DNA of 64,000 nt. Source: Eledone cirrhosa (taxonomy: Eukaryota). The translations under genes were made by a program, and so were the position numbers. A model generated the notes under the pieces. That model did not search any database and had not been told where the DNA came from. It saw only the letters and a program-made list of their open reading frames with translations. Location of the stretch: positions 113,460,001 through 113,524,000 of the forward strand of contig OZ024742.1 of NCBI GenBank assembly GCA_964016885.1, read 5' to 3'. Positions 2,421 through 56,002 of the stretch are shown here, one piece after another; the first letter of the stretch is position 1; each line of letters starts with the position of its first letter.

Positions 2421-2884
2421 GATTACAATATGAACACATTTTACATGCTCTCATATATGAATACATTTCGATTTCACTATGTTACATACTTGGCTTAATA
2501 TTAATAGCCCGTCAAGCGCCCAGCTTAAACAGGTGATCATACGCAAAATGTCTCTCGCACTTTCCCTCTTTCTATCTCTCTCTGTCTGTCTCCTACCATT
2601 CTCTCTCTCTCTCTATATATATATATATAAAGTTATACTTGGGGAGGGTCATATTTGTGTAATATTGCCAGAATTAATAACATATATATATATATATTAA
2701 TAACATATATATATGCGGATTAACAAATAATAGTTAAATGCAGTCCACTTAGGTGAAGTCCAGTTCTGGTATTCCAGGTAGTGGATGATGTTAACGCTTG
2801 GCTTGGTTTGACTCAACAAGGCGTTTTCATAGTGATGCTGCGGGTATGCCGTAATTCCTATGTTGTAAACACTTGGAGTAATAA

Positions 2885-3000
2885 TAAATCAGGAAAGAAG
2901 GTTTACATGGTTTGCTATACAAAAAAGTTTTTAATCACATAGCTATGTGATTAAAAACTTTTTTTTATAGCAAACCATGTAAACATTCTTTCCTGATTTA
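2885..3000. repeat. 116-bp near-perfect palindrome with no spacer
   Basis: Self-complementary with two mismatches, centred on CATAGCTATG (2938-2947). Confidence 0.9.
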
Positions 3001-3149
3001 ACATATATATATATATTAAGTTTGCTAAGGATAACTCCGACCTTACAAACGATGAAATTAAGATTATATTAGAAGCTAGGAAAACTATAGTCAAATTTGA
3101 GAACAGTTATTGGGTACGTAAAGATAGACCCTCTAACTTTGACATAACA

Positions 3150-4514
3150 ATGGGCTCTAACGATTCGGCGGAAATAACTGATATTGTGGGGTTATTTATC
3201 GCCTTTAGACTCCAGGAAAAATTCAGCAATCTCCACGGCGGAATATACCGCGACGATGTTCTCCTCCTAGCTAAAAACCTTAATAACCAAAAACTAGAAA
3301 AACTACGCAAAGATATAAGAAAACTACTACTCGAAATAGGACTAACTATAACATATGAATACAACCTTAAAGTAGTTAACTTCCTGGATGTCACACTCAA
3401 TTTAAACTCTGGTTTGATTAAACCGTTTCATAAATTGAATGAAAATCTCAAATACGTAAATGTTGGGTCTAACCACCCCATCTCTATAATTAAATCTATC
3501 CCTAAAAATATTTCCCTTAGAATCTCGGGTCTATCTTCTAACATACAAGTATTTAAGGAACACGCCGAGTACTACGATAACGCCCTTAGTAAAGCAGGCT
3601 ACCTCAACAAAATAGAGTACATAGATGGGAACAATCAAAACACCCAAAATAAATCCCACATAGGTAGATATAATAACACAACACCAAACCACACTTACTA
3701 CCATAGTATGCACACCAGTAAACCAACAAACAAAACTAATAGAAAGCGATGCAAAGAGTACTTATGGTATAACCCCGAATACAATAGCTCCATTAGTACA
3801 AATTTACCAGTACTCTTCTTTAAAATAATTAAAAGACATTTTCCCACATCACACAAATACCACAAAATCCTAAACCCTACCACTATAAGACTGTCATACT
3901 CTACAGCGTTAAACCTTGAACAACACATAAAAAAGATCAATACTAGAAGGTTAAACGAAAACACTAAGAACTTAAGTACAAAGAACCCCCCAAAAACAGT
4001 AGACAATACACTACAGAACATAAATAAACCACACCTAAGTTCGTCCGCAATACTACTCCAGAGAAAACCCAACGTACACAACTGTAACTGCACCTATCCT
4101 GACAACTGCCCCCTCGGCAATAACTGCCTGGAAAAAAATATTATTTATAAGTGTACCATTAAATCCGGAGGCAACGAGTGGTATTACGTGGGATCAACGG
4201 CAACATCGTTTAAATCTCGATTGTATAGGCATTCTTACTCAATAAAACACCAGAGCCAAAGAAATGTAACAACTTTAGCAGAGAAAGCTTGGACGCTCAG
4301 GGATAGCAATCAAAAGTTTACCCTAAAATGGGAAAAATTAGCTAAAACCCAAAGCTTTTCCAGGAGCCAAAATTTCTGCAAATTGTGTAATCTTGAGATT
4401 TATTACATAATCACACACAAGAAGAAACTGCTGAATAACAGAATTGAACGAACATTATTCTGCCGTCACAGAACTAAAACCCTTTTTTCCCACTACAAGC
4501 CGAATATTACATAA
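3150..4514 (+). CDS. PLE polyprotein C-terminal half: RT motifs B-E, thumb, GIY-YIG endonuclease
   Basis: MGSNDSAEITD, YRDD, VNFLDVTL, CNC-x4-CPL..NCL, IIYKC...YYVGST..FKSRLYRH and CKLC motifs. Homology extends upstream to ~3020. Confidence 0.9.
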   Translation: MGSNDSAEITDIVGLFIAFRLQEKFSNLHGGIYRDDVLLLAKNLNNQKLEKLRKDIRKLLLEIGLTITYEYNLKVVNFLDVTLNLNSGLIKPFHKLNENLKYVNVGSNHPISIIKSIPKNISLRISGLSSNIQVFKEHAEYYDNALSKAGYLNKIEYIDGNNQNTQNKSHIGRYNNTTPNHTYYHSMHTSKPTNKTNRKRCKEYLWYNPEYNSSISTNLPVLFFKIIKRHFPTSHKYHKILNPTTIRLSYSTALNLEQHIKKINTRRLNENTKNLSTKNPPKTVDNTLQNINKPHLSSSAILLQRKPNVHNCNCTYPDNCPLGNNCLEKNIIYKCTIKSGGNEWYYVGSTATSFKSRLYRHSYSIKHQSQRNVTTLAEKAWTLRDSNQKFTLKWEKLAKTQSFSRSQNFCKLCNLEIYYIITHKKKLLNNRIERTLFCRHRTKTLFSHYKPNIT

Positions 4515-4783
4515 AAGAGGGACATGCCCCAACTATATAAACCTTAATCTAGTTAGAAAAATATAAAAACAATCTCTTTTCAACATATATTAATAACCTT
4601 AAATTACCATACTAATAATGAAAAGATATGCTGATGAGAATAGGTACAAATATGCGATAATGAATGTGTCTAAAAACGTCCATAAGTATGTATATATATG
4701 TGAAAATGTATATAAATAAGTAAATATATATATATGTTTGATGTGTATAGTTAGATGTAAGTGTATTCATGTATTAAAGTGCT

Positions 4784-4816
<33 letters not shown>

Positions 4817-4833
4817 ATATGTGTGTATATATG

Positions 4834-4874
<41 letters not shown>

Positions 4875-5464
4875 GTATATGTATATATGTATATATATAT
4901 GTGTATGTATGTATGTGTATATGGATGTGTATGTATGTGTATGTGTGTACACATGGACTAGAGTATGTATGTATATATGTGTGTGTCTATACGTGTGTAT
5001 ATATAAAGATAAGTTGAGTATGAAAATGTATACACATGAGCGCGTATGTATGTACATGAATACATGTGTGTATATATATGTGTATGCATGTGTATATATA
5101 TGTAAGTATGAATATGTGAATTGTGAGTATATGTATTTTGTAGAGGTGTGCAAATATATTTGTGTGTGAATGCGTGGGTGAAAGAATACGTACACTTGAA
5201 AGAAAAATTGAAGTCTGAATGTTAAGTGCAAACACAAAACCAACCACGCATATCTTTACTATCTCTAATCCTTCTATAGATTTAGAAAAATAACCAATAA
5301 TATATTCTATAAAAAATGTCAAAACAACAGATGGGAATCTAATTAATCACTGCCACCAAGAATTCTCACTGCTATCGAAAAACCACTCCTTCAACTATTC
5401 TTCTAACAACTTCACCCCTTCCTCCTAATATTCTCTATAAAAACTAAATAGGTCCTCAGTAATA

Positions 5465-7741: not shown

Positions 7742-8165
7742 ATTAGAATTGGCGCTCTGAAATAGCTATATATATATTTCGCAATACACTGTATGCTTAA
7801 TTAAAAGCATTTCGAAAACCTTATGCTATTGTTTTAGAGTAGTGACAGTCTCACTTACTTTAAATTTTCAGCAAGCAGGGGGAGATAAAGCTGACATAGC
7901 TATGTTTCGTAGTGATTGGTACTTATCAAAGCCAAGTACCCCACCTGTTTGCTGAAAATCATGAATGTTTCATTCTTATAGAATTTCTAGTAATAATCAG
8001 GGTACTTGGCTTTGATAAGTACCAATCAGATCGAACCATAGCTCTGTCAGCTTTATCTCCGACTGTTTGCTGAAAATTTAAAGTAAGTGAGACGGTCACT
8101 ACTCTAAAACAATAGCATAAGGTCTTCGAAATGATTTTAATTAAGCGTACAGTAAAATACACTAT
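7742..8165. mobile_element. Non-coding hammerhead element as an inverted pair (family A, related to 20425-21225)
   Basis: Arms 7788-7941 and 8000-8153 are reverse complements; each carries an HHR motif. Confidence 0.85.
7889..7933 (-). ncRNA. Type I hammerhead with U3-A8 core variant
   Basis: Minus strand: ggct-TTGATAA-gta ccaatcac tac-GAAA-CATAGCTATG-TC-agct. Confidence 0.75.
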
Positions 8166-8514
8166 ACATACATTTAATATAAATATATTAGTGTTAACAT
8201 TTTTGAAATTTCAAGACGTATAAATGGAGATCTCATAAACATATCAATTCAATATAAATGATGATGTTAGGAAAATAAATCAGACATAATCAAAATGTAA
8301 AATCATTTGATAGATATCATGAAATGCCAAAAGTTAGTATTGTAAGACCAAATACATTACAATCATTCACGTGGAACTAATAGACTTCATAATAGACTTC
8401 AGTAGACAACCCAAGTGACAAGCGTGTATTCACGATTACTAATTTCAAAGTGATTGGAATTGATTAATTTTCCTTGTACATACGCACACACACGCACTCA
8501 CACACACACACCCA

Positions 8515-9839: not shown

Positions 9840-12725
9840 AGAACTATGTACCAACCATCCAAACTTGCGCAAGTTATCGGAGAAATGGAAGCCTACAAAA
9901 TTAACATCCCGGGCCTCAGCGAGGTCCACTGAACTGACTCTGGGGAGTTTGTCTATGAAAACAAGACCATCCTGTTCTCAGGCCGTCAGAACGGGACCGA
10001 CCGAGATGGAGTTGCAATCATCATGGACAGGGCTGCCAACGGTGCCCTTGTGGAGTGGACTCCTATCAACGAACGCCTAATGACAGCAAGATTCACCACA
10101 TCACATGCAAAAGTCACCATAGTTCAGTGCTATGCTCCAACCAACGAACATAACGACGATGACAAGGACGCTTTCTACCAGCAACTACAAGATGTTGTCA
10201 ACAAAACCCCACGTCATGACATCCTGATCATCATGGGAGTAATGAACGCACAGATGGGGGGAAGCAGAGTTGGGTTTGCACATGTCATTGGCCCCCATGC
10301 TTATGGAAACCGCACGGACAACGGGGACAGGTTTGTCCAGTTATGTGCCATGAACAATATGAAAATCGGCTCGTCACTATTTGACCACAAGAACATCCAC
10401 AAGGTCACATGGGCTTCGAACGACCACAGGACCAAGACGCAAATAGACCATGTTGCAATTGGCCCAAGATGGAGAACTCCTTGCCTGCAGGACGTCCGAG
10501 TCTACCGAGGCGCAGATGTTTGCAGTGACCACTATATGTCTGTTAGCAAACTTAAAATCAGACTGAGGAAGCGTTTTGACACTACCAAGGGGTTTTGACA
10601 CTACCAAGCTGAAGAACGGTGATACAGAAGCACAGTTCGAGGCTGCTTTGACTAACATATTTGCTGTCCTTGAGGAGTCTGCACCAGGCTCGGTCAATTG
10701 ATGGGAGGAAATGAAGAAGACCATAGTAGCGGCAGGGGAAGAAATCCTGGGCTACAGGAAGTCCCTCAGGGAAGCTTGGGTCTGCGACAACACCTGGCAG
10801 CTGATTAATGAAAGGAAAGCCCTACACCAGCTGAGGATTGCCACTGCCCCAGAGGCCATCAAAGTATAACATGAGTATGTTGAGAAGGACAAGGAGGTGA
10901 AACGCAGCGACCAAAAGGACAAACGAATGTGGTTTGAGATTAAGGCAGAGGACGCAGAAGCAGCTGCCGCACGCAATGACATCCGCTCTGTGCACCAAAT
11001 TGCCAAGAAAATCACCGGCAGCTCTAGAGCTTTCTCAGGCCCGGTGAAAGCGAAAGACCGTACGCTGCTTTCCAAGGGTGAATAAAAGTTAGTCAGATGG
11101 GCCGAACATTTCATGGAAGTCCTCAACCGACCGGAGCCACGTATGCCAGCATGCACTAAGGAAACTACTAGTTTGCTACCTATCAATACTGATGACTTCA
11201 CCGAGAAGGAAGTCCGCATGGCCATCAAAACCCTTAAGAATAACAAGTCACCAAGTCTGGATGGCATTTCTGCTGAAATGCTGAAGTCAAGAGGCGAAAG
11301 CATAGTCAAGTGGATGGGCCACTTATGTAATCTTGTGTGGAACACGGGTGAAGTCCTAGAAGACTGGAGAAACGGAGCGGTTGTCTGTATCCCCAAGAAG
11401 GGCAACCTTGCCAATTGTGACAACTGGAGGGCAGTGACACATCTCTCCATACCAGGAAAGGTCTATACTCTAGTGATCCTGAACCGCATGCATGGCATGG
11501 TAGACCGGGAACTGCAAGAACAACAGACAGGGTTCCGACCATAACGTTCCTGTACAGAGCAGATCTTTCCGCTACGCCGCACCATTGAGAGGTACAACGA
11601 ATTCCAGAGGCCCCTCGCCATCTGCTTCATCGCTTTCTCCAAAGCCTTCGATAACATTCATCGACCGTCGCTCTGGAGCATTATGCATGAGTATATTCTG
11701 CTCCAGAAAGTCATTTCGGCAATCAAACAGATTTACGCAAACTCCAAGTGCTGCATACGGACAGAGGATGGTTACAGTGACTGGTTTGAGGTAGTTACTG
11801 CGTGCGTCAAGGTTGCTCGCTCCCTCCAATTATCTTTGCCATATCCATTGACTGGTTACTAAGAAGAGCGTCTAAAGACCAGGGTATATCTTGATTGGGA
11901 GAGCAAAAGTTGTCTGACCTGGACTTTGCGAACGATATTGCTGCACTTGCAGAGAGCACAGCAGACCTGCAAATCATTGTGAACAATGTCAATGTCAAAG
12001 CAGGAAGCTTAGGTCTCAATATCAGTGCCAAGCAGACCAAAAGCATGTTATCTGGGACACACACATCACCAACCAATGTCTTCATTTAACAGACTGATGT
12101 GGAGATAGTGGACAACTTCACCTACCTAGAAAGCTCCATTAACAATGAGCATACCATGGACATTGAACTGCAATGTAGAATGGGAAAGGCTTCAGCAGCA
12201 TTTAACCAGCTTGACAAGATCTGGAAGAGCAGGAAGTTCACCCTAAAAACAAAGATGAGATTCTACAACAGCAACGTGCTGTTTAAACTCTTGTACGGAA
12301 GTGAAACATGGCACCTTAAGACCAGCCAAGAGAAGAATTTGGACGTATTCGATTCCAGATGTCTGCGAAAGATCCTGGGGATTAAATGGAGTGAACATGT
12401 AACAAACCAGGAAGTCAGGAACTGCACCAACTAGCAGCTAGTCTATTCTATCATCTGCATGCGACGGCTGGGCTGTTTTGGAAACGCTTTTAGACTCCCC
12501 CCCCCCCGGACGGACTGGCGAACGAAGTACTTAAAATGGAGCCCGCAGGGAAGCAGACGGACAGGGCGACCCAAAATGAACTGGCGCCAGAGAGTTGAGA
12601 GGGACCTGCGAGCGACAAACAGACAATGGCGAGATGCTGTACAACTGGCTGCTGACCGAACGCGATGGAACACTATCACTGCCTCATGCGTCGCAAGACG
12701 AGGGAGCTTTTGAATCTGAATCTGA
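9840..12725 (+). mobile_element. Near-full-length decayed RTE-clade LINE (APE + RT) with stops and frameshifts
   Basis: RTMYQPSKLAQVIGEMEAYKINIPGLSEV, IVQCYAPTN, QIDHVAI, SDH, IPKKGNL..CDNWR, QQTGFRP, LDFANDI, LLYGSETW; (TGAATC)n tail at 12711-12725. Confidence 0.95.
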
Positions 12726-13579: not shown

Positions 13580-16241
13580 GACATGCTGTAAGGAACCAGA
13601 TGGACCATAGCGCACTAGAGTACTCAATACTTAGGGTAGTAGAGTGGGAACTAGAAAAAGTATGACTCCGATGGCAGAGCTAAAGCCGTTTCGACGCCTA
13701 TTTCAGGACTAAATTAGAATTTTTACCCTGGTTAATAAATAGCCGAACTTGTGAAGGGGGTACTTCCTTATATGGGAAGATTGTCGTTGTCAAGAGACAA
13801 CTAGAGACAACTATAGACAACCAGAGACAACAAGAGACAACAGGATTGGTTAAAATTTGTTGTAAACACAAATAAGTCTATCATGGCATTTGGTGGCAGG
13901 TAGGGTGGCTGAATTGCCTATAGAACAATAGGTGGTGAGTGGAGCGGTCAAGTGTTGAAAGTGATATGTATACAGCGGATTCTAAGGAGAGTGTATGAAG
14001 TGGAGGAGGGAGGTTATAGAATAGGTAAATCAAGTGAGAGTAGGACACAATAAAATATAATAGAAATAAATATCAAAATATATAAACTTAGATAGTGAGA
14101 AAAGAATGTTTAAAAATCACAATGCTATCTTACAATTACAGGTTAATAAGTTGAGAATAGAAAAAAACTTGTAGAAATTGAGTAGTACCAAAACTGATAC
14201 AAAAATAAAAGAGTTAGCTCCGGACAGTAAGCTCTAAGTGAGATTGTAGGTTATATTATCATGGAGGTCCCAGATGTGGCCCGAAAGTGGAGTGTCATGT
14301 CGCCGGACCGGGTTTTGCAAAGTATGTTGGTGTTGGTAGAGCCGGGTCTTGAAGTCACACGCGGTTAATCCTATGTAAGCTTTGTTGGAGGTGTCCGTCC
14401 TCACATTGCACTGGTAGATCACGTTACGTTCTCGACATTTGTTGTTGAGGGGGCACGTAGATCTGTCAGGGCAGTTACACCTCCTGGTCATCTCTCCACT
14501 GATGACTAGGTTATTTCTTCCATAGGGGTTGAGTTTTTTGTTGTTTGAGAAGACGATGATTTGTGCGAAGTTATGTGTGGTGTTGTAGGAGAGTTCGATG
14601 GTGTTTTTGTTGATTATGTTGTGGTAGTGTTTTTCTAGGAGTCTAAAGAAGATCTTCCCGATAGGTGTTGCCACCTCGCCATTATGGGGAATGTTGAACC
14701 ACGTTACGTTGCGTGAGCGGCGCTGTCGCCCGCTGGTTCCGCTAAGGGAGGCTGGATAAAAGGATATTTCCTCCATGAGGCCACTCCGCTTGAGGGCCTG
14801 GTGCAATGAGGCGCGTGATCGTCGAATATCTGCTCATTAGCGGACAAACGAGATATGCGGAAGGAGATGTTTTAACTAGGTTATTGGTGATGTTTCTAGG
14901 ATGGTTAGAGCGGCGGTGGATGTAGTGCGGGTTGTGGTTTGGTTTTCTGTATGGGTAGTACAGATCATTTTCGAGATTAAGGGTAACGTCCAGGAAATTG
15001 ACTCCGCTTAGGGACGTTTGTAGGGTGATTTTAAATCCCCAGTCCCGGAAGAAGTTGATTAGTTGTTTACGGACCCGGTCTGTACAACTGGGGTTGTACC
15101 CTTTGAGGGTGAGGAGCCCATCATCCCGGTACAATCCACCTCCGAAAGCAGGAAACATTTCGGTGAGTTTAAATAGTAGGAATAATCCTATAAGATCTGT
15201 GACCTCGGCCGAATCTGTTGCGCCCATACTGACGTTGAATGGGGAGTCAGGAGCTCTCTTTATCCACTTGGAGTTGGTGGAAAGTAGGACTGTCTTCCTG
15301 GCGTGGAGAATGATATGTATTTCATGGTCAGTGATGGGTGTGAGTGTTTCCGTAAGGATCGGTAAGCTAATAGATGCATAGTAATTCTTTATGTCAAACT
15401 GGATGAATTGTGTGTCTCGTTTTTCTTCCATATTCCAGAACCAATAGAGATTACTTCCTGGCTGCTGACCCATAGGCTGTCTCACGTTTTACTTAAATGT
15501 TGGTATAACTCGGTCTAGGATCTTTTTACTGATTCTCCCTATGTCCGACTTCGTTGGGTTTATAAGCCTAATGGATGGTTTATTAGCCTAATGGTTTATA
15601 AGCCTAATGGATGCAGCCATTGATGCAGCCCATCGGGCCTCTGTAGCATCATTTGCCCCACCTCTGTAATTTTAAGATAGAATTGGCCGAATACGTTTTA
15701 CTAACTACTTATAGCAGACCTGTTAAACCCCTTTTATTTTTGTATCGGTTTTGGTACTTCTCAATGTCTACAAGTTTTTTTCTCTGCTCAACTTGTTAAC
15801 CTGTAATTGTAAAATAGCATTGTGATTTTTTTTTTATTCATTTCTCAATATCTAATTTTATATATTTTTTTTATTTATTTCTATTATCTTTTATTGTGTG
15901 CTACTCTCATTCGATTTACCTATTCTATAACTCCCTCCTCCACTTCATACACTATCCTTAGAATCTGCGGTATACATTTCATGTTCAATGCTTTACGCTC
16001 CACTCACACTCCTATTGTTCTAGGGGTAAGTTCAGCCACCCGTACCTGCCACCAAATGCCATGATAGACTTATTTGTGTTTACAACACATTTTAAAACAT
16101 CCTCTTGACAACTACAATCTTCCCATATAAGGAAGTACCCCCTTGACAAAATCGGCTATTTATTCACCAGGTAAACATTCTAATTTAGTCCAGAAGTAGC
16201 CATCGAAACGGCTTGAGCTCTGCCGTCGGGGTCATACTTTT

Positions 16242-16314: not shown

Positions 16315-16629
16315 ATATATTAGTAAATGGAAAAGAAAATGCTGACAAATTTTTCCCAGTGAAAAATAGTTTAATTAGGAATAATTAAAACATAGTAATG
16401 AGTATTGGTTAGTATTCAGTTTTAGTTTTAAGTTTTCACAGGTTGCGCATTTCTAATGCTTTTCTCGAAATTATTTTTAAAAAGCATTAGAAATGCGCAA
16501 CCGGTAAAAACTTAAAAATAAAACTGAATACTAACCAATACATATTACTAATTTTTACTTATTCCTAATTAAAGTATTTTTCATTTGGAAAAGTTTGTCA
16601 GCATTTACTTTTCCTTTTTCCTAATATAT
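16315..16629. repeat. ~315-bp imperfect palindrome
   Basis: GGTTGCGCATTTCTAATGCTTTT / AAAAGCATTAGAAATGCGCAACC at the centre; arms remain complementary outward. Confidence 0.85.
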
Positions 16630-16765: not shown

Positions 16766-16861
16766 TAGATAGATAGATAGATAGACAGATAGATAGATAG
16801 ATAGATAGATAGATATAGATAGGTAAATATACACGGGTGTGTATGATTGTGTATAGAAGAT

Positions 16862-17776
16862 TATATTAATAAGAGGAATTTCAACTTTGTCTGATTTACT
16901 CATTTTATTTAAAATCCTTTAAAATATATAATGGTATTATAATGAAATAGTATGATAGAATATTAAATTCTAAGTGTTAATTGAACAAGTACTTTCATGC
17001 TTTCGCAATCTTTAGGTTCATAATATGTGGTAACAGTCGAATTTGCAATTTTCAACTGTAATGAGATGGGTAAATTTCCTACCTTTTATACATTTTATAC
17101 AGAGAAAAGTGGCTCTAGAATGCTAAGCCCTGTAAACTGTATTTCGACCAATCAGTGTGTAGTTTCACTGAATTACTAAAGCTGATTGGTTTAAGCGTCA
17201 CGGCTGGTTGAGCATGCTAACAACCAATAATCATATCCAAAGCATCAATTGTTTTGCTATTTTTAGAAATGATGAAAATAGCATTTTCTATTAATCATCA
17301 CCATCAACATCACTTTTATTATTATTATTATTGTTGTTGTTGTTGTTGTTAGTGGTCGTGATCATAGTGGTAATCATTTCTAAAAATAGCAAAACAATTG
17401 ATGCTTTGGATATGATTATTGGTCGTTAGCATGCTCAACCAGCCGTGACGCTTAAACCAATCAGCTTTAGTAATTCAGTGAAACTACACACTGATTGGTC
17501 GAAATACAGTTTACAGGGCTTAGCATTCTCGAGCCACTTTTCTCTGTATAAAATGTATATAAGGTAGGAAATTGACCCATCTCATTACAGTTGAAAGTTG
17601 CAAACTCGACTGTCACCACATATTATGAACCTGAAGATTGCGAAAGCATGAAAGTACTTGTTCAATTAACACTTAGAATTTAATATTCTATCTTACTATT
17701 TCATTATGATACCATTATATATTTTAAAGGATTGTAAATAAAACGAGTAAATCAGACAAAGTTGGAATTCCTCTTA

Positions 17777-17783
<7 letters not shown>
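16862..17783. mobile_element. Inverted-pair hammerhead element (family C) with ~410-bp arms
   Basis: Arms 16862-17273 and 17373-17783 are highly similar reverse complements with a ~100-bp triplet-repeat spacer; microsatellite flanks. Confidence 0.9.
17626..17664 (+). ncRNA. Minimal Type I hammerhead ribozyme
   Basis: tgaac-CTGAAGA-t tgc GAAA gca t-GAAA-GTAC-TT-gttca. The mirror copy 16982-17020 has CTAAAGA (G5A). Confidence 0.85.
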
Positions 17784-17865
<82 letters not shown>

Positions 17866-19359
17866 CGGGGTTCTGAATTACAATGCATTTAAGTTAGTGA
17901 CTATAGTTACATATAGATATGTAACTTTTGGCAAAAACAAAAGAAAACAACAGACGATCGTTTCTCATGTTTAGTAGTTATCGAGTCTATATATTCCTTT
18001 GTTTTTGATGTGAGCTGTAGCAGCTGGATTCTTATAGGATACCAATTATTTGTTTATGAGCTGTTTAAACTCAATAACATACAGAGCGGCTGCCGATTTA
18101 CGTTTATGAAAATGTATCTTAATACTTGGGAGGTTTCACCTATTCAAGACAATGATAAATAACGAAATCTATTCGAATTCTTACCTCTATCGCAATTTCT
18201 ATCAACAATGACCTATATTACACGATTCTCTTTCTAATCCGTCCCACATTTGAAAATATTAAATATAATATTATATGAGAAGTACTCCACTTCTCTTTCA
18301 GGGAATCGAACAAATCGACAGTTTTCATGTTCAAAGTCTAATAGTCATTAAATAGTTTGTGCATATTGGACCAATAAGACGCTCGACACACTATTGTTTA
18401 GCCAATGAGTTATTTAGGTGTTTTGAAAATGAACAAATACTATTATAATTTAAACAAATCTCGCTGATACTTAAGATGATCCGTTGACAGCCTAATATGA
18501 TTAATTAGCCATTTTGTTGTTTCACATTAAAACTATAATTTAGAGGTTACTGCTGTGGTTTATGCCTCTTAACTGAATTTTCTAGAAATGTCACCTAAAT
18601 CTCCATCATAACTCACTTTCTTAAACAGAAAAAGTGGATAAAAGACTGACGCAAAGTGTATGGGAACATACATTAGAGTGAAGTGGTTGAAGTATTTAGA
18701 AACGTTTGCCCGAGAATTTCTGGTCTGGTTGCAAGATAGTAAAATCATTTTATTTAAATACAAATTCATACCAGTTTATTTATTTAATTTTTTACTAATT
18801 TACTGGTTTCATTATTTTGACTATAATTATGCTGTGATAATGACGTAAATTATATATTCCATAATATTAAACATGAATACTTGATTCTTGCGCATGAAAC
18901 AAATATCATTTTCAGTTTCATTTCGAATTTATAGGAACAAAACCTAATATAATATTTGTGTTCTCTTTAATTCACTGGCGAGACAAGTTTGTTGTAGATT
19001 CAGGTTCAATCGCACATATATATTTGTATAACGGATTCTCAAAGTATTTTAATGAACATCTATTTAGAAAAAACATGCTAACGCCACCATTGTTATTGAT
19101 ATTTTCGTAGTGAATCCCCGTGGTTAAACATATTGTCATAGTCAAAATATTTGCCACTATTATAGCACGGGTTTATATATATTTCATTTAGCATATATAC
19201 TTGAGATCACTCTCTATTATCAGTTGAAAGTCAATTCAATATATTAAATAAAATCATTTCAATCATTATAACAGTAACAATGAATTTATTGAAATAGAAT
19301 TTCTCAAATTCAGTAATTCATATGGTGATATTAGATGTGTGCTGACGAGCTTCGTTCTC

Positions 19360-20402: not shown

Positions 20403-20424
<22 letters not shown>

Positions 20425-20434
<10 letters not shown>

Positions 20435-21222
20435 GTGTATTTTGCAATACACTGTATGCTTAATTAAAAACATTTTGAAGACCTTACGCTATTGTTCTAA
20501 AGTAGTGACCATGTCACTGACTTCTTTTTTCAACAAACAAAGGGAGATACGCTGACATATCTCTGTTTTGATACTGTTGTTAATCATCAGAGCTCAGCAC
20601 TCGCCTTTGTGTGTTGAATATTTTAAATGTTGGACTCTTATAGAATTCCAGTAATAATCAGGAACTGATTATACAGAGTGCTTGCCTGTCCAGCAAAAAA
20701 TTGAAAATTAGAATTGGTGCTCAGAAATAGCGATGTATGCATGAATGTATATATAGTATATTTGGCAATATACTGTATGCTTAATTAAAACCAATTTGAA
20801 GATCTTACGCTATTGTTGTTTGCTGAAAAAAGAAGTGACATAATCACTACTTTAGAACAATAGAATAAGGTCTTCAAAATATTTTTAATTAAGCATACAG
20901 TATATTGCCAAACATATTATATATACACCGCAATGTATAATCAGTTCCTGATTATAACTGGAATTCTATAAGAATCCAACATTTATAATATTCAACAGAC
21001 AAAGGCGAGTGCTAAGCTCTGATGATTACCAACAGTATGAAACAGAGATATGTCAGCTTATCTCCCATTGTTTGTTGAAAACAAAAGTAATTGACATAGT
21101 CACTACTTTAGAAAAATGGCGTAAGGTTTCAAAATATGTTTTAATTAAGCATACAGTATATTGCCAAATATACTATATATACACTTATGTATACATCGCT
21201 ATTTCAGAGAACCAATTGTAAT

Positions 21223-21225: not shown

Positions 21226-21280
<55 letters not shown>

Positions 21281-21493
21281 CGTTTCTGAATTTGTTTAGC
21301 AAGATTCTTTATCTGAAATCGTGTGTTGAAACCGATATTGTTATACTTTGGGAGGGTCATGTTGCCAATAAGAAACACACGCACCAGTTGCTTTCACTTC
21401 AATTTAATTTAATATATATTTATAAATTTACAAATTTATAAATTTCTGGTTGGTTGGTTGGTTCCACAACCAGATAGTTGTTTATATATATAT

Positions 21494-21538
21494 AGTCATA
21501 GTTCTTTCGTCACACACTCTGTGACCTCTTCAGTGACT
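21494..21538 (-). ncRNA. Minimal Type I hammerhead in PLE 3' UTR (left arm)
   Basis: agtca-CTGAAGA-g gtcaca gagtg tgtgac-GAAA-gaac-TA-tgact. Confidence 0.8.
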
Positions 21539-21835
21539 GGGGATTTCTTTCTTCGTTTCTGTGCCTTTCCTTTCTTCTATCCTACGCCATTTTGTTTGTG
21601 TGTGGGTTGCGTGCTCAGTTTGCGCATGCGCCACATCCGGGTGTCTGTGTGTGTTTGTGTTCATTTTTCTATTTTTCTATTTATATTTGTTTGTTTATTT
21701 ATTTATTTATTGTTGGTTGGTTGTTTGTTCTATGTGTGTGTGTGTTTTCATTTTGTCTTGTGTGTGTTTTCATTTTGTGTGTGTTTTCAATTGTAAGTTG
21801 TTTGTTCTATGTGTGTGTGTGTTTTCATTTTGTCC

Positions 21836-23840
21836 TTAATTGTAAGTTGTGATGTTGCTGTTCCACTCATATTTTCTATTTAATTTTGGTTTTAATTCTT
21901 TTATGCTTACTGCCTCTGTAATGTGCCTAAACATTGCGTCTTTCTTGTGTGTGGATTCTATTTTTATTTCTATGCTCTCTAATTTACCCCTGTGTTCTAT
22001 CTTAGCATGTTGGTAGAGCACAGATGATTCTTTACTATCTTGGAGGTCTCGCCAGTGTTCATTTATTCGTTCCCCTATACTACGAGCTGTCTCACCTATG
22101 TACACTATATTTTTGTTTCTACATTGTCCTTCAGTACATCTTATGCTATATACTACATTTCTAGTTTTACAGTTAATATGGGGGCTTATTTTACAGGTTA
22201 TACATTTCTTATCTATACATGAGGGTCTTTGGAACGGGTATGTCTTGCTAATAAGTGTTTTTACGGAGGTACCAGGTCTTTCTACTATCTTAATATTGAG
22301 ATTATGTTTCTTTAGGGCCCTTCTAAATTTGTAGGCTAGTTCGCCTCTAGGGGTTGTATTGATGAACATTACACTCTGGTATTTATTGCTATCATACCAT
22401 GAGTTTATTCTATTGGCCTTGTTCTTAGTTCTTTCTATTCTATTCCAAAATTTGCTCCTATACAAGGGGCAGGTCCCATTTATGTCATTATTTACCATTT
22501 TTTCCCATTTGGTTCTGGCTCCTTTATACACTCTGATTCTATCTCTCTGATTGTAGCCAGAGAACTGCATACGGTGGATGAAGTGTTGTATGTGTCTCTC
22601 TAGTTCTTCGGGGTTGCACATGCGGGACACATTTCTCATCACCCGTATCAAATCCGCAATCAGTATGTTGATTTTGGTATGGTCCGAAATGGCCGAGTTT
22701 CGGTGGATCAGATGTTTGGAAGTCATGGGTTTGGCATAATGGGAATGGAGGATTTGTTTTTGGTTGTTAATAGTATCTAACCAGAGCTCTGTGTCTAGTA
22801 CAGGTAATCGATGGTTGGGGTGTCTACTTGGGTAGTCTATAGTAACTCTAATGCTCTGGTGGATGGAGTTTGATATTTGCTGGATGCTTTCCATTGTGTT
22901 TTTCTCTGGTTCCTGACTGTTCTTTAGTGGGGGTGTCTTAACTACGATGTTTATATCATCTACGTAGCGGGAGTACATTATCAGGGTTAAGCTGTCTTCT
23001 AATTGTTCTTTAAGTTTTTGTTTAAGTCTACTGTCCCACCATACCATGAACAAGTTAGCTATGTCGCCTGCAATGCTAACACCAATGGCTGCTCCTTCCT
23101 CTTGGGCATATGTTTTACCATTAAATTTGAACATATGTTCCTTAAGGGTTAATTTTATGCTGGCCCCTACCGCATGTGCAATCATTTTCTTCAGTTCATC
23201 GTGGTTTTCGGGTGTCCGTATGGCTCTGGTCCACCCGTTCCATCTATCTGTGTGGGTTTTCTTGGCCATTGAGGTAATGGTAGGTGGTCTGCCTCTTGCT
23301 GGTCTTGTAGGGCACAGGTTGCTAAGGTCATAAGTGTCTAGGCAACTATTACTATGGGTAAGCTTAAGTAGAAGTCCCAGCTCACTGGTATCAATCCCAC
23401 GGAACTCAACCTTGCTCTCGCTGATCATTTCGACGCATTTCTCCACAGCAAAATCCACGTCAATAGATGGATACAGGGACACAACATCCATACTGCCTAT
23501 TATGCAGTTTGTTAGGTCCCCAGATCGGTTACCCGCGCCGATTCTGCTGAGGAGGTCCTCCGTGCTGTCACACACATCTGGGGACATCTCAATGATGGGG
23601 CGTATGATCAGGGAGAGGAAGTAGGACAGTCTGTAGTTACTAGCAATGTTAGCCCCACAGACTGGCCGTGTTGGTGGTCCCGCGACAGGGTCCCAGCCCG
23701 TTTTATGGTCTTTTCGAAGCCCATACAACGCCGGCACGTCATTGTTCCAGGCCTGGAAGTTGTTGGCAGTCCTTTTGTTGGGCTGCATTATATTTGTCCA
23801 CATCACCATATGGGCATTGAGGGTTTTTTCTCTATCCTCA
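21836..23840 (-). CDS. PLE RT + GIY-YIG, 5'-truncated inverted copy
   Basis: 657-aa ORF differing from the plus-strand copy at about five residues. Confidence 0.9.
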
Positions 23841-23913
23841 GAAATCAGAAATCAGAGAAATAAGAGAAATAAGAGAAATAAGAGAAATAAGAGAAATCAG
23901 AGAAATAAGAGAA
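23840..23913 (+). repeat. 9-bp tandem repeat (AGAGAAATA/C)n at the inversion junction
   Basis: Directly visible; in frame with the PLE ORF it reads (IRE)n. Confidence 0.85.
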
Positions 23914-24012
23914 AGTAATAGGATTAAAAGGAGTAGGGAGACTAAGGACAAAGAGAATAACCAAGACGAACACACAGACACACAAAATAGGGTAGATAAC
24001 AACATTGAGCCA

Positions 24013-26520
24013 GTGGAAAGAGACAGGAGTAATTATGAGAGACATAGAAACAACCATGAAGCTGAGGCTGCTGCTGTTGGTGGAAATAGAAACAACACAA
24101 CTAACAATAGCACTAGTACACATAAAGCAGCAGCCTGGAACTCTCCGTTTTATAACCCCTCCGATAAATCATTCGACCTACGACGAGTCCACGCCACGAC
24201 TTTGCCATTTAACAAACGCACGCAGTTGCCGTCGCAGGTCGATGAACAAACAGAAGCACAATTTAGTATAGCTAAATCCGAACTTAGAAATATTATAGAA
24301 CAGTATAGCAAGAAGCATAATAGAATAGAGGCCCAGCAACTGGGAGAAGAATCTGCAAATGGCTTGCGTAAGCTCATGCAGCGCTCGCGTAATGGAGAGA
24401 TAGCATGCTTTCCAACAGACAAGTCTGGCAGAATGTCGGTTGACAGCCTGCCAAACTACATCCAGGCAATGCAACCCCACATCACTAACACAAGAGAGGT
24501 AACACCACAGGAGCATGAGGATAGAGAAAAAACCCTCAATGCCCATATGGTGATGTGGACAAATATAATGCAGCCCAACAAAAGGACTGCCAACAACTTC
24601 CAGGCCTGGAACAATGACGTGCCGGCGTTGTATGGGCTTCGAAAAGACCATAAAACGGGCTGGGACCCTGTCGCGGGACCACCAACACGGCCAGTCTGTG
24701 GGGCTAACATTGCTAGTAACTACAGACTGTCCTACTTCCTCTCCCTGATCATACGCCCCATCATTGAGATGTCCCCAGATGTGTGTGACAGCACGGAGGA
24801 CCTCCTCAGCAGAATCGGCGCGGGTAACCGATCTGGGGACCTAACAAACTGCATAATAGGCAGTATGGATGTTGTGTCCCTGTATCCATCTATTGACGTG
24901 GATTTTGCTGTGGAGAAATGCGTCGAAATGATCAGCGAGAGCAAGGTTGAGTTCCGTGGGATTGATACCAGTGAGCTGGGACTTCTACTTAAGCTTACCC
25001 ATAGTAATAGTTACCTAGACACTTATGACCTTAGCAACCTGTGCCCTACAAGACCAGCAAGAGGCAGACCACCTACCATTACCTCAATGGCCAAGAAAAC
25101 CCACACAGATAGATGGAACGGGTGGACCAGAGCCATACGGACACCCGAAAACCACGATGAACTGAAGAAAATGATTGCACATGCGGTAGGGGCCAGCATA
25201 AAATTAACCCTTAAGGAACATATGTTCAAATTTAATGGTAAAACATATGCCCAAGAGGAAGGAGCAGCCATTGGTGTTAGCATTGCAGGCGACATAGCTA
25301 ACTTGTTCATGGTATGGTGGGACAGTAGACTTAAACAAAAACTTAAAGAACAATTAGAAGACAGCTTAACCCTGATAATGTACTCCCGCTACGTAGATGA
25401 TATAAACATCGTAGTTAAGACACCCCCACTAAAGAACAGTCAGGAACCAGAGAAAAACACAATGGAAAGCATCCAGCAAATAGCAAACTACATCCACCAG
25501 AGCATTAGAGTTACTATGGACTACCCAAGTAGACACCCCAACCATCGATTACCTGTACTAGACACAGAGCTCTGGTTAGATACTATTAACAACCAAAAAC
25601 AAATCCTCCATTCCCATTATGCCAAACCCATGACTTCCAAACATCTGATCCACCGAAACTCGGCCATTTCGGACCATACCAAAATCAACATACTGATTGC
25701 GGATTTGATACGGGTGATGAGAAATGTGTCCCGCATGTGCAACCCCGAAGAACTAGAGAGACACATACAACACTTCATCCACCGTATGCAGTTCTCTGGC
25801 TACAATCAGAGAGATAGAATCAGAGTGTATAAAGGAGCCAGAACCAAATGGGAAAAAATGGTAAATAATGACATAAATGGGACCTGCCCCTTGTATAGGA
25901 GCAAATTTTGGAATAGAATAGAAAGAACTAAGAACAAGGCCAATAGAATAAACTCATGGTATGATAGCAATAAATACCAGAGTGTAATGTTCATCAATAC
26001 AACCCCTAGAGGCGAACTAGCCTACAAATTTAGAAGGGCCCTAAAGAAACATAATCTCAATATTAAGATAGTAGAAAGACCTGGTACCTCCGTAAAAACA
26101 CTTATTAGCAAGACATACCCGTTCCAAAGACCCTCATGTATAGATAAGAAATGTATAACCTGTAAAATAAGCCCCCATATTAACTGTAAAACTAGAAATG
26201 TAGTATATAGCATAAGATGTACTGAAGGACAATGTAGAAACAAAAATATAGTGTACATAGGTGAGACAGCTCGTAGTATAGGGGAACGAATAAATGAACA
26301 CTGGCGAGACCTCCAAGATAGTAAAGAATCATCTGTGCTCTACCAACATGCTAAGATAGAACACAGGGGTAAATTAGAGAGCATAGAAATAAAAATAGAA
26401 TCCACACACAAGAAAGACGCAATGTTTAGGCAAATTACAGAGGCAGTAAGCATAAAAGAATTAAAACCAAAATTAAATAGAAAATATGAGTGGAACAGCA
26501 ACATCACAACTTACAATTAA
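24013..26520 (+). CDS. Uninterrupted PLE polyprotein: DKG-like motif, RT, thumb, Zn-associated GIY-YIG endonuclease
   Basis: PTDKSG, LYGLRKDHK, TRPVCG, SMDVVSLYPSI, GAAIG, RYVDD, LPVLD, C-x4-CITC, VVYSIRC...YIGETARSIGERINEH, YQH, ITEA. Confidence 0.95.
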   Translation: MERDRSNYERHRNNHEAEAAAVGGNRNNTTNNSTSTHKAAAWNSPFYNPSDKSFDLRRVHATTLPFNKRTQLPSQVDEQTEAQFSIAKSELRNIIEQYSKKHNRIEAQQLGEESANGLRKLMQRSRNGEIACFPTDKSGRMSVDSLPNYIQAMQPHITNTREVTPQEHEDREKTLNAHMVMWTNIMQPNKRTANNFQAWNNDVPALYGLRKDHKTGWDPVAGPPTRPVCGANIASNYRLSYFLSLIIRPIIEMSPDVCDSTEDLLSRIGAGNRSGDLTNCIIGSMDVVSLYPSIDVDFAVEKCVEMISESKVEFRGIDTSELGLLLKLTHSNSYLDTYDLSNLCPTRPARGRPPTITSMAKKTHTDRWNGWTRAIRTPENHDELKKMIAHAVGASIKLTLKEHMFKFNGKTYAQEEGAAIGVSIAGDIANLFMVWWDSRLKQKLKEQLEDSLTLIMYSRYVDDINIVVKTPPLKNSQEPEKNTMESIQQIANYIHQSIRVTMDYPSRHPNHRLPVLDTELWLDTINNQKQILHSHYAKPMTSKHLIHRNSAISDHTKINILIADLIRVMRNVSRMCNPEELERHIQHFIHRMQFSGYNQRDRIRVYKGARTKWEKMVNNDINGTCPLYRSKFWNRIERTKNKANRINSWYDSNKYQSVMFINTTPRGELAYKFRRALKKHNLNIKIVERPGTSVKTLISKTYPFQRPSCIDKKCITCKISPHINCKTRNVVYSIRCTEGQCRNKNIVYIGETARSIGERINEHWRDLQDSKESSVLYQHAKIEHRGKLESIEIKIESTHKKDAMFRQITEAVSIKELKPKLNRKYEWNSNITTYN

Positions 26521-26817
26521 GGACAAAATGAAAACACACACACACATAGAACAAACAACTTACAATTGAAAACACACACAAAATGAAAACACACACAAGA
26601 CAAAATGAAAACACACACACACATAGAACAAACAACCAACCAACAATAAATAAATAAATAAACAAACAAATATAAATAGAAAAATAGAAAAATGAACACA
26701 AACACACACAGACACCCGGATGTGGCGCATGCGCAAACTGAGCACGCAACCCACACACAAACAAAATGGCGTAGGATAGAAGAAAGGAAAGGCACAGAAA
26801 CGAAGAAAGAAATCCCC

Positions 26818-26862
26818 AGTCACTGAAGAGGTCACATAGTGTGTGACGAAAGAACTATGACT
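26818..26862 (+). ncRNA. Minimal Type I hammerhead in PLE 3' UTR (right arm)
   Basis: agtca-CTGAAGA(26823-29)-g gtcaca tagtg tgtgac-GAAA(26848-51)-gaac-TA-tgact. Confidence 0.8.
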
Positions 26863-27013
26863 ATATATATATAAACAACTATCTGGTTGTGGAACCAACC
26901 AACCAACCAGAAATTTATAAATTTGTAAATTTATAAATATATATTAAATTAAATTGAAGTGAAAGCAACTGGTGCGTGTGTTTCTTATTGGCAACATGAC
27001 CCTCCCAAAGTAT

Positions 27014-27081
<68 letters not shown>

Positions 27082-52539: not shown

Positions 52540-53076
52540 TTGTGTGTGAATGTGAGTGTGTGTATGTGTGTGTGTATGTGTGTGTGTTTGTGTATGTCTG
52601 TGTGTGTCTGCGAGTGTGTGGATGTGTCTGTGTATGTGTCTATGTGTGTGTGTTTGTACATACAATAATTAAATTTATATACATATGGTACTCAGCAAAC
52701 AAAAAAACTCAATGAACATTAATCTCAGTGCATAATATATAGAAATTTACACGATATATATGTTTTCTTGTATCTCTAGTTGATATACAGAAATAATAGA
52801 TTTAATTTCTTAAAGAAAGTGTCATGTCAAAATTGCCTAATGTTCACTTATACGGTCGTTTCGTTAATTCCATAACATGATGAGTAAAACCATTTTTGGT
52901 GATTAGGTTCAATCCCCAATTATCGAGCTTAGTATGAAGCAGCATGAAGAATATGGAAACGTGATTAATGTCATATCTATATACATCTCACTCTACACAT
53001 TAACTAATTACCTACATGCAATGCGTTCAAATTAAGCCGCATTGAGCCCAACCATTTAAATCGGTTGTTGGCATGA

Positions 53077-53137
<61 letters not shown>

Positions 53138-53147
53138 GGGGGGGGGC

Positions 53148-53190
<43 letters not shown>

Positions 53191-53625
53191 CACCCACACT
53201 TTTCCATATTCTTCATGCTGCTACATACAAAGATCGATAATTGGGGATTGACCCCAATCACTAAAAATGGTTTTAGGCATCATGTTCTGTAATTAAGGAA
53301 ACGACCGTATAAGTGAACATTGGGCAATTTTGACATGACACTTTCTTTAAGAAACTAAATCTATTATTTTTGTATATCAACTAGAGATACAAGAAAAAAT
53401 ATATATCGTGTAAATTTCTATATATTATGCACTGAGATTAATGTTCACTGAGTTTTTCTTTGCTGAGTAACATATGTATATACATTTTATTATTGTATAC
53501 ACACACACCCACACACACACATAGACACATACATAGACACAGACAGAAACACATCCACACACACACATATACACACAGGCATACTCAGACACACACAAAC
53601 ACACACACATACACTCACACACATA
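52540..53625. repeat. Long inverted repeat with (TG)/(CA) outer arms
   Basis: Unique arms ~52655-52962 and ~53197-53500 are reverse complements (e.g. GTGTCATGTCAAAATTGCC / GGCAATTTTGACATGACAC); ~230-bp spacer. Confidence 0.9.
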
Positions 53626-53914: not shown

Positions 53915-54104
53915 ATATAATTTAATATAATTTTGAGTTTTCACTCAGGAGTCAAATACTGAATTAAGGTATTTTTATCTGGCTAAATTATTGTCAATTT
54001 GCAATAAAAACACATTAGTGTTGATCATAATTTTATATTAATTTGTACTATATATATATATGCGTGTGTGTGTGTATATATATATTTAATATATATATTT
54101 AAAT

Positions 54105-55105
54105 GGGAAAGAATGAAACGAAATTTCATTCCTCACTCTTAGTACAGCTGATACTTAAATACAAGTATCTATCCGTACATACATATATGTATACAGACGT
54201 ACACTACTATGTATATATATATACATACATGCACACATATATACATATATATGTACGTATGTGTTAACCGAACATTTATTATAATGTTTGGTTTGTTTCT
54301 AAACAAACAGCCGGAATTAAGCCGTATCTGTTCGGCAACCATCGTTGCCCTTTTGTTCGACACTGACAAATGAACGATGACGTAGTTTCAAGTTTATTAG
54401 CTATCGTCACCATCGTATACCTTCCTGTCAGATAATTGAACTTTTGAAAGTATAGACTTTCCTTTTGCATATTAACGGCTGAGCAGCCAAATTTGTATAT
54501 CGAGTGAGTTAGACGGCCGGGCGTACGGTAAACGATAAATGGATAAGAATGAACGAAATTTCATTTCTCAATCTTAGTGCGGCTGATACTTAAATATAAG
54601 TATGTATACGTACATACATATATTTATACAGACGTACAATAGTATGTATATATATACATACATGCACACACACATATATATATATATATATACGTATGGG
54701 TTTACCGAACATCTATTATAATTGTCGGTTGGTTTGTAAACAAACAGCCCGAATTAAGCCGTACAGTGTTCGTAAACAATCGTTGCTCTTTTGTTCAACA
54801 CTGACAAAGGACCGATAAACTAGTTTCAAGCTTAGTAGCTATCCTCAGCATCGCATACCTTCCTGTCAGATGATTGAGCGTTTGAAAGTATATACTTTCC
54901 TTGTGCATATAAACGGCTGAGCAGCCTATTTTGCATATCTATTGAATTAGTCGGCCGGGCGCAGCGAAAACGATAAAAGGAAAACAATGAAACGAAATTT
55001 CATTTCTCAATATTAGTACGGCTGATACTTAAATATAAGTATGCATACGTACATACATATATGTATACAGACGTACATTAATATGTAAGTGTATATACAT
55101 ACATT

Positions 55106-55204
<99 letters not shown>

Positions 55205-55880
55205 GTAAGGTTTTACCGAACGATTATTATAATGTTCGGTTTGTTTGTAAACAAACAGGCCGAAATAAGTCGTACGGTGTTCGGCAACCATCGTTGTTCT
55301 TTTGTTCAACACTGACAAAGCGACGATGAACTAGCTTCAAGCTTATTAGCTATCGTCAGCATTGTATACCTTCCTGTTAAATGATTGAACGTTTGAATGT
55401 ATATACTTTCCTTATGCATATTAACGGCTGAGCAGCCTAATATTCGTACATATATATATGTGTGCATGTATGTATATATACACATACTACTGTACGTCTG
55501 TATACATATATGTATGTACGTATATATACATATATTTAAGTATCAGCCGTACTAAGAGTGAAAAATGAAATTTCGTTTCATTCCTCTCCATTTATCATTT
55601 TTGGATCGCCCGGCCGACTAACTCACTCGATATGCAAATTAGGCAGCTCAGGCATTATCATGCACAAGGAAAGTATGTACTTTCAATCGTTCAATCATCC
55701 GACAGGAAAGTATACGATGCTGACGATAGCTAATAAGCTTGAATCTAATTCATCGTTCCTTTGTCTGTGTTAAACTAAAGGGAAACGATGGTTGCCAAAC
55801 ACTGTCCGGCTTAGTTCGGGCTGTTTGTTTACAAAAATAACGAACATTATAATAAATGTTTGGTAAACCCACACGTATAT
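54105..55880. mobile_element. Retrozyme-like array (family D): three tandem ~437-bp units plus one inverted unit, one hammerhead per unit
   Basis: Units start at ~54105, 54541 and 54979; inverted unit 55445-55875. HHR motifs at 54375-54415, 54813-54853, 55324-55364 (minus) and 55715-55755 (plus). Confidence 0.9.
54813..54853 (-). ncRNA. Minimal Type I hammerhead, the intact copy of the array
   Basis: cgatg-CTGAGGA-t agct acta agct t-GAAA-CTAG-TT-tatcg. Confidence 0.85.
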
Positions 55881-55938
55881 ATATATATATATATGCATGT
55901 ATGTATATATATACATACATGCGTACATATATATATAC

Positions 55939-55999
<61 letters not shown>

Positions 56000-56002
<3 letters not shown>

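What the first reader, a model, noticed from the sequence alone, without database searches (positions are those of the whole stretch)
21335..27021. Very young 5.7-kb PLE palindrome with two intact RT-endonuclease frames and two intact hammerheads
Seen: 2506-bp arms; visible differences are about five amino-acid changes and one HHR loop base; no stops in either frame. The inverted part spans most of the ORF, not just a terminal repeat. Inference: a recently active family (thumb/linker motifs suggest the Naiad-like clade, unverified) and the best candidate driver for the non-coding HHR elements. It is also a potential source of 2.5 kb of dsRNA. The few arm differences argue against a pure assembly artefact.
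Basis: partly seen in the sequence, partly recalled or inferred. Interest (0 to 1): 0.75.

Follow-up and report, generated by a model that had tools for sequence, protein, structure and literature searches.

The report
Penelope palindrome from an unplaced clade
This mirror-image repeat is two cut-short copies of a young Penelope-type jumping gene joined head to head, a known insertion shape likely made by copying RNA onto both ends of one DNA cut; neither copy is complete, but the gene belongs to a large, likely undescribed branch whose copying enzyme carries a telomerase-sized extra piece.

Summary
The palindrome is in the assembly as described: 2506-nt arms, six differences, two hammerheads. 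The shape is the published insertion form of Penelope-like elements (PLEs); 27 of 33 other loci of this young family share it. Both frames are stop-free but 5'-truncated (the family ORF is 1266 aa), so this locus is likely a dead product, not a driver. It is not Naiad, and the neighbouring hammerhead palindrome at 16780-17866 matches a Neptune family. A 57-nt tail lies on one end only, on the shorter arm as often as on the longer (9:9), so neither arm is a copy of the other: two-ended priming is likely. The family has a C-terminal GIY-YIG plus 124-135 aa between RT motifs A and B (47-62 in other C-terminal-nuclease PLEs, 79-84 in Naiads). It forms its own 100/100 branch outside five reference clades, and I found no description of it in seven paper searches. 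This scan noted the insert and two-ended priming before, on other DNA of this genome. No reads confirm the junction.

The parts
21227..21278 (.). (TA)n target, left flank
21279..21334 (-). One-sided tail: the first codons of the next unit's ORF, present on this end only
   Evidence: reads through into the ORF in L048
21335..23840 (-). Left arm: 5'-truncated copy (unit position about 1773 to the 3' end)
21494..21538 (-). Type I hammerhead in the 3' UTR/pseudo-LTR (family allele in loop II)
21836..23851 (-). Stop-free 671-aa frame: RT core, thumb, linker, GIY-YIG; lacks residues 1 to about 600, including the DKS motif; 3 private changes
23841..23891 (+). Junction stutter: reiterated 7-9-nt units of the family sequence at the truncation point; not expanded in 38 of 38 other copies read at that site
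23892..27021 (+). Right copy, 5'-truncated at unit position about 1149; 23892-24515 has no partner in the left arm; no tail
23821..26520 (+). Stop-free 899-aa frame (element-coded from about residue 392 of 1266; first ATG at 24376)
24865..25275 (+). RT motif A to motif B, 128 aa apart: conserved insertion of about 70 aa in the fingers; atypical motif B (G..IG instead of G..MG)
26137..26520 (+). CX4CxxC linker and C-terminal GIY-YIG endonuclease with CCHH residues
26818..26862 (+). Type I hammerhead (private G>T in loop II)
26996..26998 (+). ATG that starts the family ORF when a unit follows in tandem (mirror at 21358-21360)
27018..27079 (.). (TA)n target, right flank

Best explanation
The feature is one insertion of two 5'-truncated copies of a young Penelope-like retrotransposon, joined head to head inside a (TA)n tract, likely made when the element's nuclease cut both strands and each end primed its own copy of element RNA. 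Shown: both 3' ends face outward into (TA)n; the left end carries a tail that the right lacks while the right carries 675 nt that the left lacks; both frames lack the N-terminus and start codon. Inferred: the two ends start at two fixed RNA sites about 57 nt apart (both read AATATCG, so the RNA could pair with a TA primer); both cDNAs stop early and are joined with slippage (the 7-9-nt stutter); the six differences arose during or after insertion. The copy is likely dead on arrival; source copies are partial tandems such as L048. The family belongs to a likely undescribed PLE clade with a C-terminal GIY-YIG and a 70-aa fingers insertion.
For: Architecture: 27 of 33 other loci are head-to-head, each with different breakpoints. 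Tail on exactly one outer end in 21 of 22 head-to-head loci with both ends readable (window included; both ends in L032; 6 nested or cut loci left out); on the shorter arm in 9, the longer in 9, equal arms in 3 (tallied by hand). A fold-back copy cannot hold sequence that its template arm lacks. In vitro a Poseidon protein cuts and extends both strands and starts at two sites that bound the tail (PMC11167929, parts 1-2 read). Arms of one locus share private and subfamily variants (46 shared, 27 private, over 22 inverted pairs from 17 loci) and never differ at the two commonest subfamily sites: one source per insertion. Window differences are 3 per arm, all private among 24 loci, 5 of 5 coding ones non-synonymous. 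Clade: motif A-B spacing 124-135 aa in 119 of 120 homologs and 117-148 in the 42 of 147 distant representatives where both motifs were matched, against 79-84 Naiad, 47-62 Poseidon, 58-60 Nematis-like, 59 Neptune, 51 Hydra; own branch 100/100, stem 1.55; model closest to telomerases (Z 14.8, rmsd 3.5, 278 aligned).
Against: L032 has a tail on both ends, and 6 of 33 loci show no inverted partner. The data cannot tell one RNA molecule from two RNAs of one source locus. Fold-back plus nuclease trimming of the tail is not formally excluded. Reference clades were labelled by me from motifs in the paper's alignments, with only 2 Hydra and 3 Neptune rows, and no Athena, Coprina, Chlamys, nematode Nematis or telomerase rows; deep branches are unresolved and a sister position to Naiad is not rejected (p-AU 0.19). 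The linker and nuclease look like the Nematis rows of the paper's Figs S2 and S7 (by eye). Repbase and Dfam could not be searched. The paper notes sporadic IFD-like regions in Coprina, so the insertion alone does not define a clade.
Confidence: 0.75

Rival explanations
1. Fold-back: one cDNA snaps back at its 3' end and is copied as a hairpin; the nuclease later trims the tail from one end.
For: Arms of a locus share private variants; the tail was proposed to come from nuclease resolution of the intermediate (PMC8557442) and self-priming was proposed for the palindromes (PMC3846280); 1-4 nt microhomology at some junctions.
Against: The tail is on the shorter arm in 9 of 18 unequal loci, this one included, where the longer (template) arm lacks it and is the target-primed end.
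Confidence: 0.15
2. Assembly artefact: a fold-back chimeric read or mis-joined haplotypes.
For: Arms are 99.76% identical; the junction sequence is unique to this locus.
Against: The symmetry stops at the element ends, flanks differ, the tail is one-sided, each arm has 3 private changes, and the layout recurs at 27 of 33 loci with the same end rule.
Confidence: 0.05
3. One reading: an intact Naiad-like autonomous palindrome that drives the window's non-coding hammerhead elements.
For: Frames are stop-free; the family is young; it has a fingers insertion as Naiads do, and a sister position to Naiad is not rejected.
Against: Both frames 5'-truncated; nuclease C-terminal; hammerhead present; no profile match between the two insertions (probability 0.4%); 0 of 5 hammerhead contexts match this family, one matches Neptune.
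Confidence: 0.03
4. The family is a long-branch member of a described clade (most likely Nematis) that gained an insertion, or is already catalogued as a generic Penelope family in Repbase.
For: Short CX4CxxC linker and CCHH nuclease like the Nematis rows in PMC8557442 Figs S2, S7; backbone of my tree is unresolved (53/16 for the node that separates it from Nematis-like rows).
Against: Nematis-like rows are one side of a branch without it (95/97); motif B, KDHK and DKS differ; five of its motifs occur 0 times in that paper's supplement as held.
Confidence: 0.3

Closest known systems
Complex insertions of endonuclease-positive PLEs (Craig et al. 2021, PMC8557442 Fig. 2; Arkhipova et al. 2013, PMC3846280)
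   Same: 5' truncation, partial tandems, inverted 5'-truncated copy, one-sided tail, ORF start inside the pseudo-LTR, hammerhead near the 3' end, (TA)n target, N-rich low-complexity stretch in the ORF.
   Different: Tail about 57 nt rather than 30-40; N-rich stretch lies N-terminal to the RT; unit is 4272 nt.
Nematis clade (as shown in PMC8557442 Figs S1, S2, S7)
   Same: C-terminal GIY-YIG with CCHH and a short CX2-5CxxC linker.
   Different: No fingers insertion in Nematis; motif B GLAMG versus G..IG; KTHK versus KDHK; DKG versus DKS; separate branch in my tree.
Hydra clade (PMC8557442 section 11)
   Same: C-terminal nuclease, hammerhead, (TA)n, KDHK, an RW motif.
   Different: Hydra lacks CCHH and the fingers insertion, has CxCX5C and DKT, is under 3 kb.
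Naiad clade (PMC8557442)
   Same: Fingers insertion, CX2-5CxxC and CCHH, (TA)n.
   Different: Naiad nuclease is N-terminal, DKA, no canonical hammerhead, insertion about 20 aa versus about 70 aa.
Telomerase RT with its IFD
   Same: Best structural matches of the RT model; A-B spacing of similar size (about 115 in human TERT, counted from Fig. S1).
   Different: No shown homology of the insertion itself; mobile element with a nuclease.
Poseidon of Anolis (PAc; PMC11167929)
   Same: Cuts and extends both strands; two start sites bound the tail.
   Different: PAc starts at RNA not homologous to the cut DNA; here both start sites read ATAT and could pair with (TA)n (inferred).

Membership tests
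EN+ Penelope-like elements | Single ORF with telomerase-like RT and GIY-YIG nuclease | tested here: met
   1266-aa ORF in L048; weak RVT_1 and GIY-YIG hits below cut-off; telomerases top in fold searches
EN+ Penelope-like elements | Pseudo-LTR partial tandems, inverted 5'-truncated copy, optional tail | tested here: met
EN+ Penelope-like elements | Hammerhead in the pseudo-LTR | tested here: met
   motif and helices present; cleavage not tested
Naiad | N-terminal GIY-YIG | tested here: not met
   nuclease is C-terminal in the full ORF
Naiad | DKA motif | tested here: not met
   DKS here and in 98 of 120 homologs
Naiad | No canonical hammerhead | tested here: not met
Naiad | RT branches inside Naiad | tested here: not met
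   Naiad rows 99/99 without it; sister position not rejected
Hydra | CCHH absent, CxCX5C linker | tested here: not met
   CCHH residues and CX4CxxC present
Hydra | No IFD, DKT, under 3 kb | tested here: not met
   128-aa spacing, DKS, 4272-nt unit
Hydra | (TA)n target and hammerhead | tested here: met
Nematis | C-terminal nuclease with CCHH and short CX2-5CxxC linker | tested here: met
   against Figs S2, S7
Nematis | No fingers insertion | tested here: not met
   128 versus 58-60 aa
Nematis | RT branches inside Nematis | tested here: inconclusive
   outside the 9 Nematis-like rows (95/97), but these were labelled by motif and hold no curated nematode sequence
Neptune | RT groups with Neptune; no fingers insertion | tested here: not met
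   3 own-genome rows, 100/100 without it; spacing 59
Penelope/Poseidon | No linker zinc finger; RT groups with Poseidon | tested here: not met
   linker present
Athena / Coprina / Chlamys | RT phylogeny | not tested
   no reference sequence fetched; by PMC8557442 they lack a nuclease in the RT ORF or carry it N-terminally
Telomerase IFD | Structural homology of the insertion | tested here: inconclusive
   confident model of the A-B segment (pLDDT 92.5); best Z 4.1 to unrelated chains

The most novel reading that the evidence does not exclude
The family is a currently active member of an unnamed, large clade of Penelope-like elements, the only one known to combine a C-terminal GIY-YIG with a conserved telomerase-sized fingers domain of its own fold; it primes on (TA)n through ATAT in its RNA at two sites, from both ends of one cut, and can re-copy 7-9-nt units at the join, which makes it a ready test of what a fingers insertion does outside telomerase.
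Probability: 0.5. Interest if true: 0.68.

Novelty: new variant of a known kind. Interest (0 to 1): 0.5.

Why it matters
The palindrome as such is ordinary for PLEs. Two things matter. First, PLEs are the sister group of telomerases, and the 2021 classification says that the fingers insertion marks the N-terminal-nuclease clades and that its role is unknown; a widespread C-terminal-nuclease lineage with a much larger, conserved insertion and a young family with an open 1266-aa frame adds a clade and a test system. Second, how PLEs make inverted insertions is named as an open question in that paper; the tail-versus-arm-length count discriminates between fold-back and two-ended priming and favours the latter.

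Tried and rejected
Reads: no listed contig or read bridges 23840/23841 in X1, X2, X3, X4, X5, X19; these are short contigs or reduced-representation reads, not known to be this individual, so the hole proves nothing. The 'opposite strand' joints are the normal element running on, not the junction. No RNA holder listed. Rfam: no match. PDB by sequence: nothing. Fold search of the A-B segment: no match with E<=0.001 or Z>=5, and no telomerase among the listed rows; this does not show that the folds differ. Naiad patterns found nothing in the own genome, so Naiad references came from metagenome contigs. Hydra search in prokaryote genomes: nothing. Host range: only Octopus vulgaris and one jellyfish protein, Sanderia malayensis (its spacing was not checked), carry eukaryote names; one hit is labelled bacterial on a 3.8-kb contig, which I take as contamination. 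Atlas gave PLE-type clusters and an unnamed top cluster, no clade name. A-to-G editing as cause of arm differences: 2 of 6 are A>G, no cluster. 9-mer array as an inherited allele: rejected.

Full report
Observation. The arms are at 21335-23840 and 24516-27021, 2506 nt, 675 nt apart. They differ at 6 sites: 5 amino-acid changes and one hammerhead loop base. Both frames are stop-free, 899 and 671 aa. Each arm has a type I hammerhead with an extra base after the core and a 2-bp helix III, the PLE type that is thought to need a dimer (PMC4209133, passages); the two lie on opposite strands, so one transcript holds only one in sense (inference). Both outer ends abut (TA)n, and only the left end carries a tail.

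Family. A DNA search of the own genome scored 40 of 3552 candidates; all gave 3.1-kb matches at 98-100%. These fall into the window and 33 other loci, all of which I fetched. The repeat unit is 4272 nt. In L048 a partial tandem supplies the start codon inside the pseudo-LTR and the frame runs 1266 aa; of the 33 loci it was the only one in which my scripts found such a frame. The tail is the start of this ORF, as described for other PLEs (PMC3846280, passages). The window's frames begin at about residues 392 and 600. They lack the N-terminal region, whose motifs are conserved in homologs, so 'intact' is wrong and the locus is likely dead on arrival.

The shape is ordinary. 17 of 20 and 10 of 13 loci show a head-to-head junction, each with its own breakpoints. 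Neptune- and Hydra-type families of this genome also occur in close opposite-strand pairs. Craig et al. describe exactly this: partial tandems, an inverted 5'-truncated copy and a one-sided tail (PMC8557442; seen: abstract, passages, section 4 part 1 of 4, sections 11, 12, 15, supplement parts 1, 2, 53, 54, 57, 58, 59 of 59). An artefact is unlikely: symmetry stops at the element ends and each arm has 3 private changes. Reads did not confirm the junction (see Tried and rejected).

Mechanism. In 21 of 22 head-to-head loci with both ends readable the tail is on exactly one end; L032 has two; L036, L248, L249, L252, L254 and L256 were left out as cut or nested. The tail is on the shorter arm in 9, the longer in 9, and arms are equal in 3 (hand tally). 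Here the left arm has the tail that the right lacks and the right has 675 nt that the left lacks, so neither is a plain copy of the other. This fits the in vitro result that a Poseidon protein cuts and extends both strands and starts at two sites that bound the tail (PMC11167929, parts 1-2 of 4). Both end sites read AATATCG, so pairing with a TA primer is possible (inferred). Arms of one locus share variants (46 shared, 27 private, 22 inverted pairs, some from the same locus) and never differ at the two commonest subfamily sites: one source per event. L029 is an exception with 5.4% between its pieces, likely a separate older piece. The junction holds about 51 nt of reiterated 7-9-nt units, not seen in 38 of 38 other copies at that site; shorter re-copied pieces occur at other junctions such as L033, L041, L044. 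The lead for two-ended priming came from earlier scan notes; the count is mine.

Clade. Not Naiad: the nuclease is C-terminal, a hammerhead is present, the motif is DKS. Not Hydra: CCHH and CX4CxxC are present (for the definitions). Motif A to motif B spans 128 aa; 124-135 in 119 of 120 homologs and 117-148 in the 42 of 147 more distant representatives in which both motifs were matched (the rest are mostly fragments or missed the pattern). Tool-fetched references give 79-84 (Naiad), 47-62 (Poseidon), 58-60 (Nematis-like), 59 (Neptune), 51 (Hydra). A profile search found 3109 clusters at E<=1e-30, a count that may include other PLE clades; the best 150 score E<1e-109. In a 43-row, 364-column RT tree the 15 chosen members form one branch (100/100, stem 1.55) outside five reference groups, each itself supported at 95-100; the backbone is open and a sister position to Naiad is not rejected (p-AU 0.19). 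Reference labels are mine, from motifs in Figs S1, S2, S7. The model of the 714-aa part (pLDDT 88.8) matches telomerases best. The insertion folds confidently alone and shows no profile match to the Naiad insertion. The abstract of PMC8557442 ties the IFD to N-terminal-nuclease PLEs, with sporadic cases in Coprina. Seven paper searches and two supplement searches gave no description of this group; passages of PMC13282606, PMC10294476 and PMC5718144 and the abstract and section 14 of bioRxiv 10.64898/2026.07.22.740005 name none. I noted the insertion, before seeing that an earlier scan note (e1-9508900) reports it on another copy.

Driver claim. Of 5 non-coding hammerhead contexts in the window none matches this family's unit; the one at 17631 matches the 3' ends of Neptune-type ORFs at 95-97% in 4 loci. 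Only a 24-nt end match at about 2632-2655 points to a related family. Two Hydra-type families in the window gave 150 scored matches each. Action in trans is not excluded, but nothing singles out this family.

Verdict. The palindrome is a known product and this copy is not autonomous. The family is the interesting part: likely an unnamed PLE clade (about 0.6-0.65) with a young, open-frame member, and its insertions favour two-ended priming. New variant of a known kind; interest 0.5.

Noticed in passing
window 2997-5056: 5'-truncated copy of a very young Hydra-type PLE (MGS.D..E motif, CxCX5C); 150 scored matches are 100% identical over 172 aa, many in 785-aa frames and opposite-strand pairs.
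   Followed up: partly
window 14234-15488: Older, frameshifted copy of a second Hydra-type family with many 784-aa frames elsewhere.
   Followed up: partly
window 16780-17866: 494-nt-arm palindrome with one good and one mutated hammerhead; it is the 3' end of a Neptune-type family.
   Followed up: yes
window 20420-21188: Short inverted repeat with a hammerhead at 21019 next to the left flank; matched none of the PLE loci fetched.
   Followed up: partly
window 54100-56200: Tandem and inverted 435-511-nt repeats with hammerheads at 54848 and 56182 (retrozyme-like).
   Followed up: no
window 2614-2655: 42-nt match (86%) to this family's 3' end beside (TA)n; similar short ends occur in other loci: a related family.
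   Followed up: no
L048:4835-8635: Residues about 245-470 of the family ORF are an Asn/Thr/His-rich low-complexity stretch; several other full-length copies change frame in or just before it.
   Followed up: partly
L043:7679-7701: A run of about 25 A at a head-to-head junction.
   Followed up: no
window 9933-11544 and 58432-61775: Decayed LINE-type endonuclease/RT frames (recognised from recalled motifs, not tested).
   Followed up: no
window 7768-8173, 16325-16618, 52703-53457: Further short non-coding palindromes.
   Followed up: no
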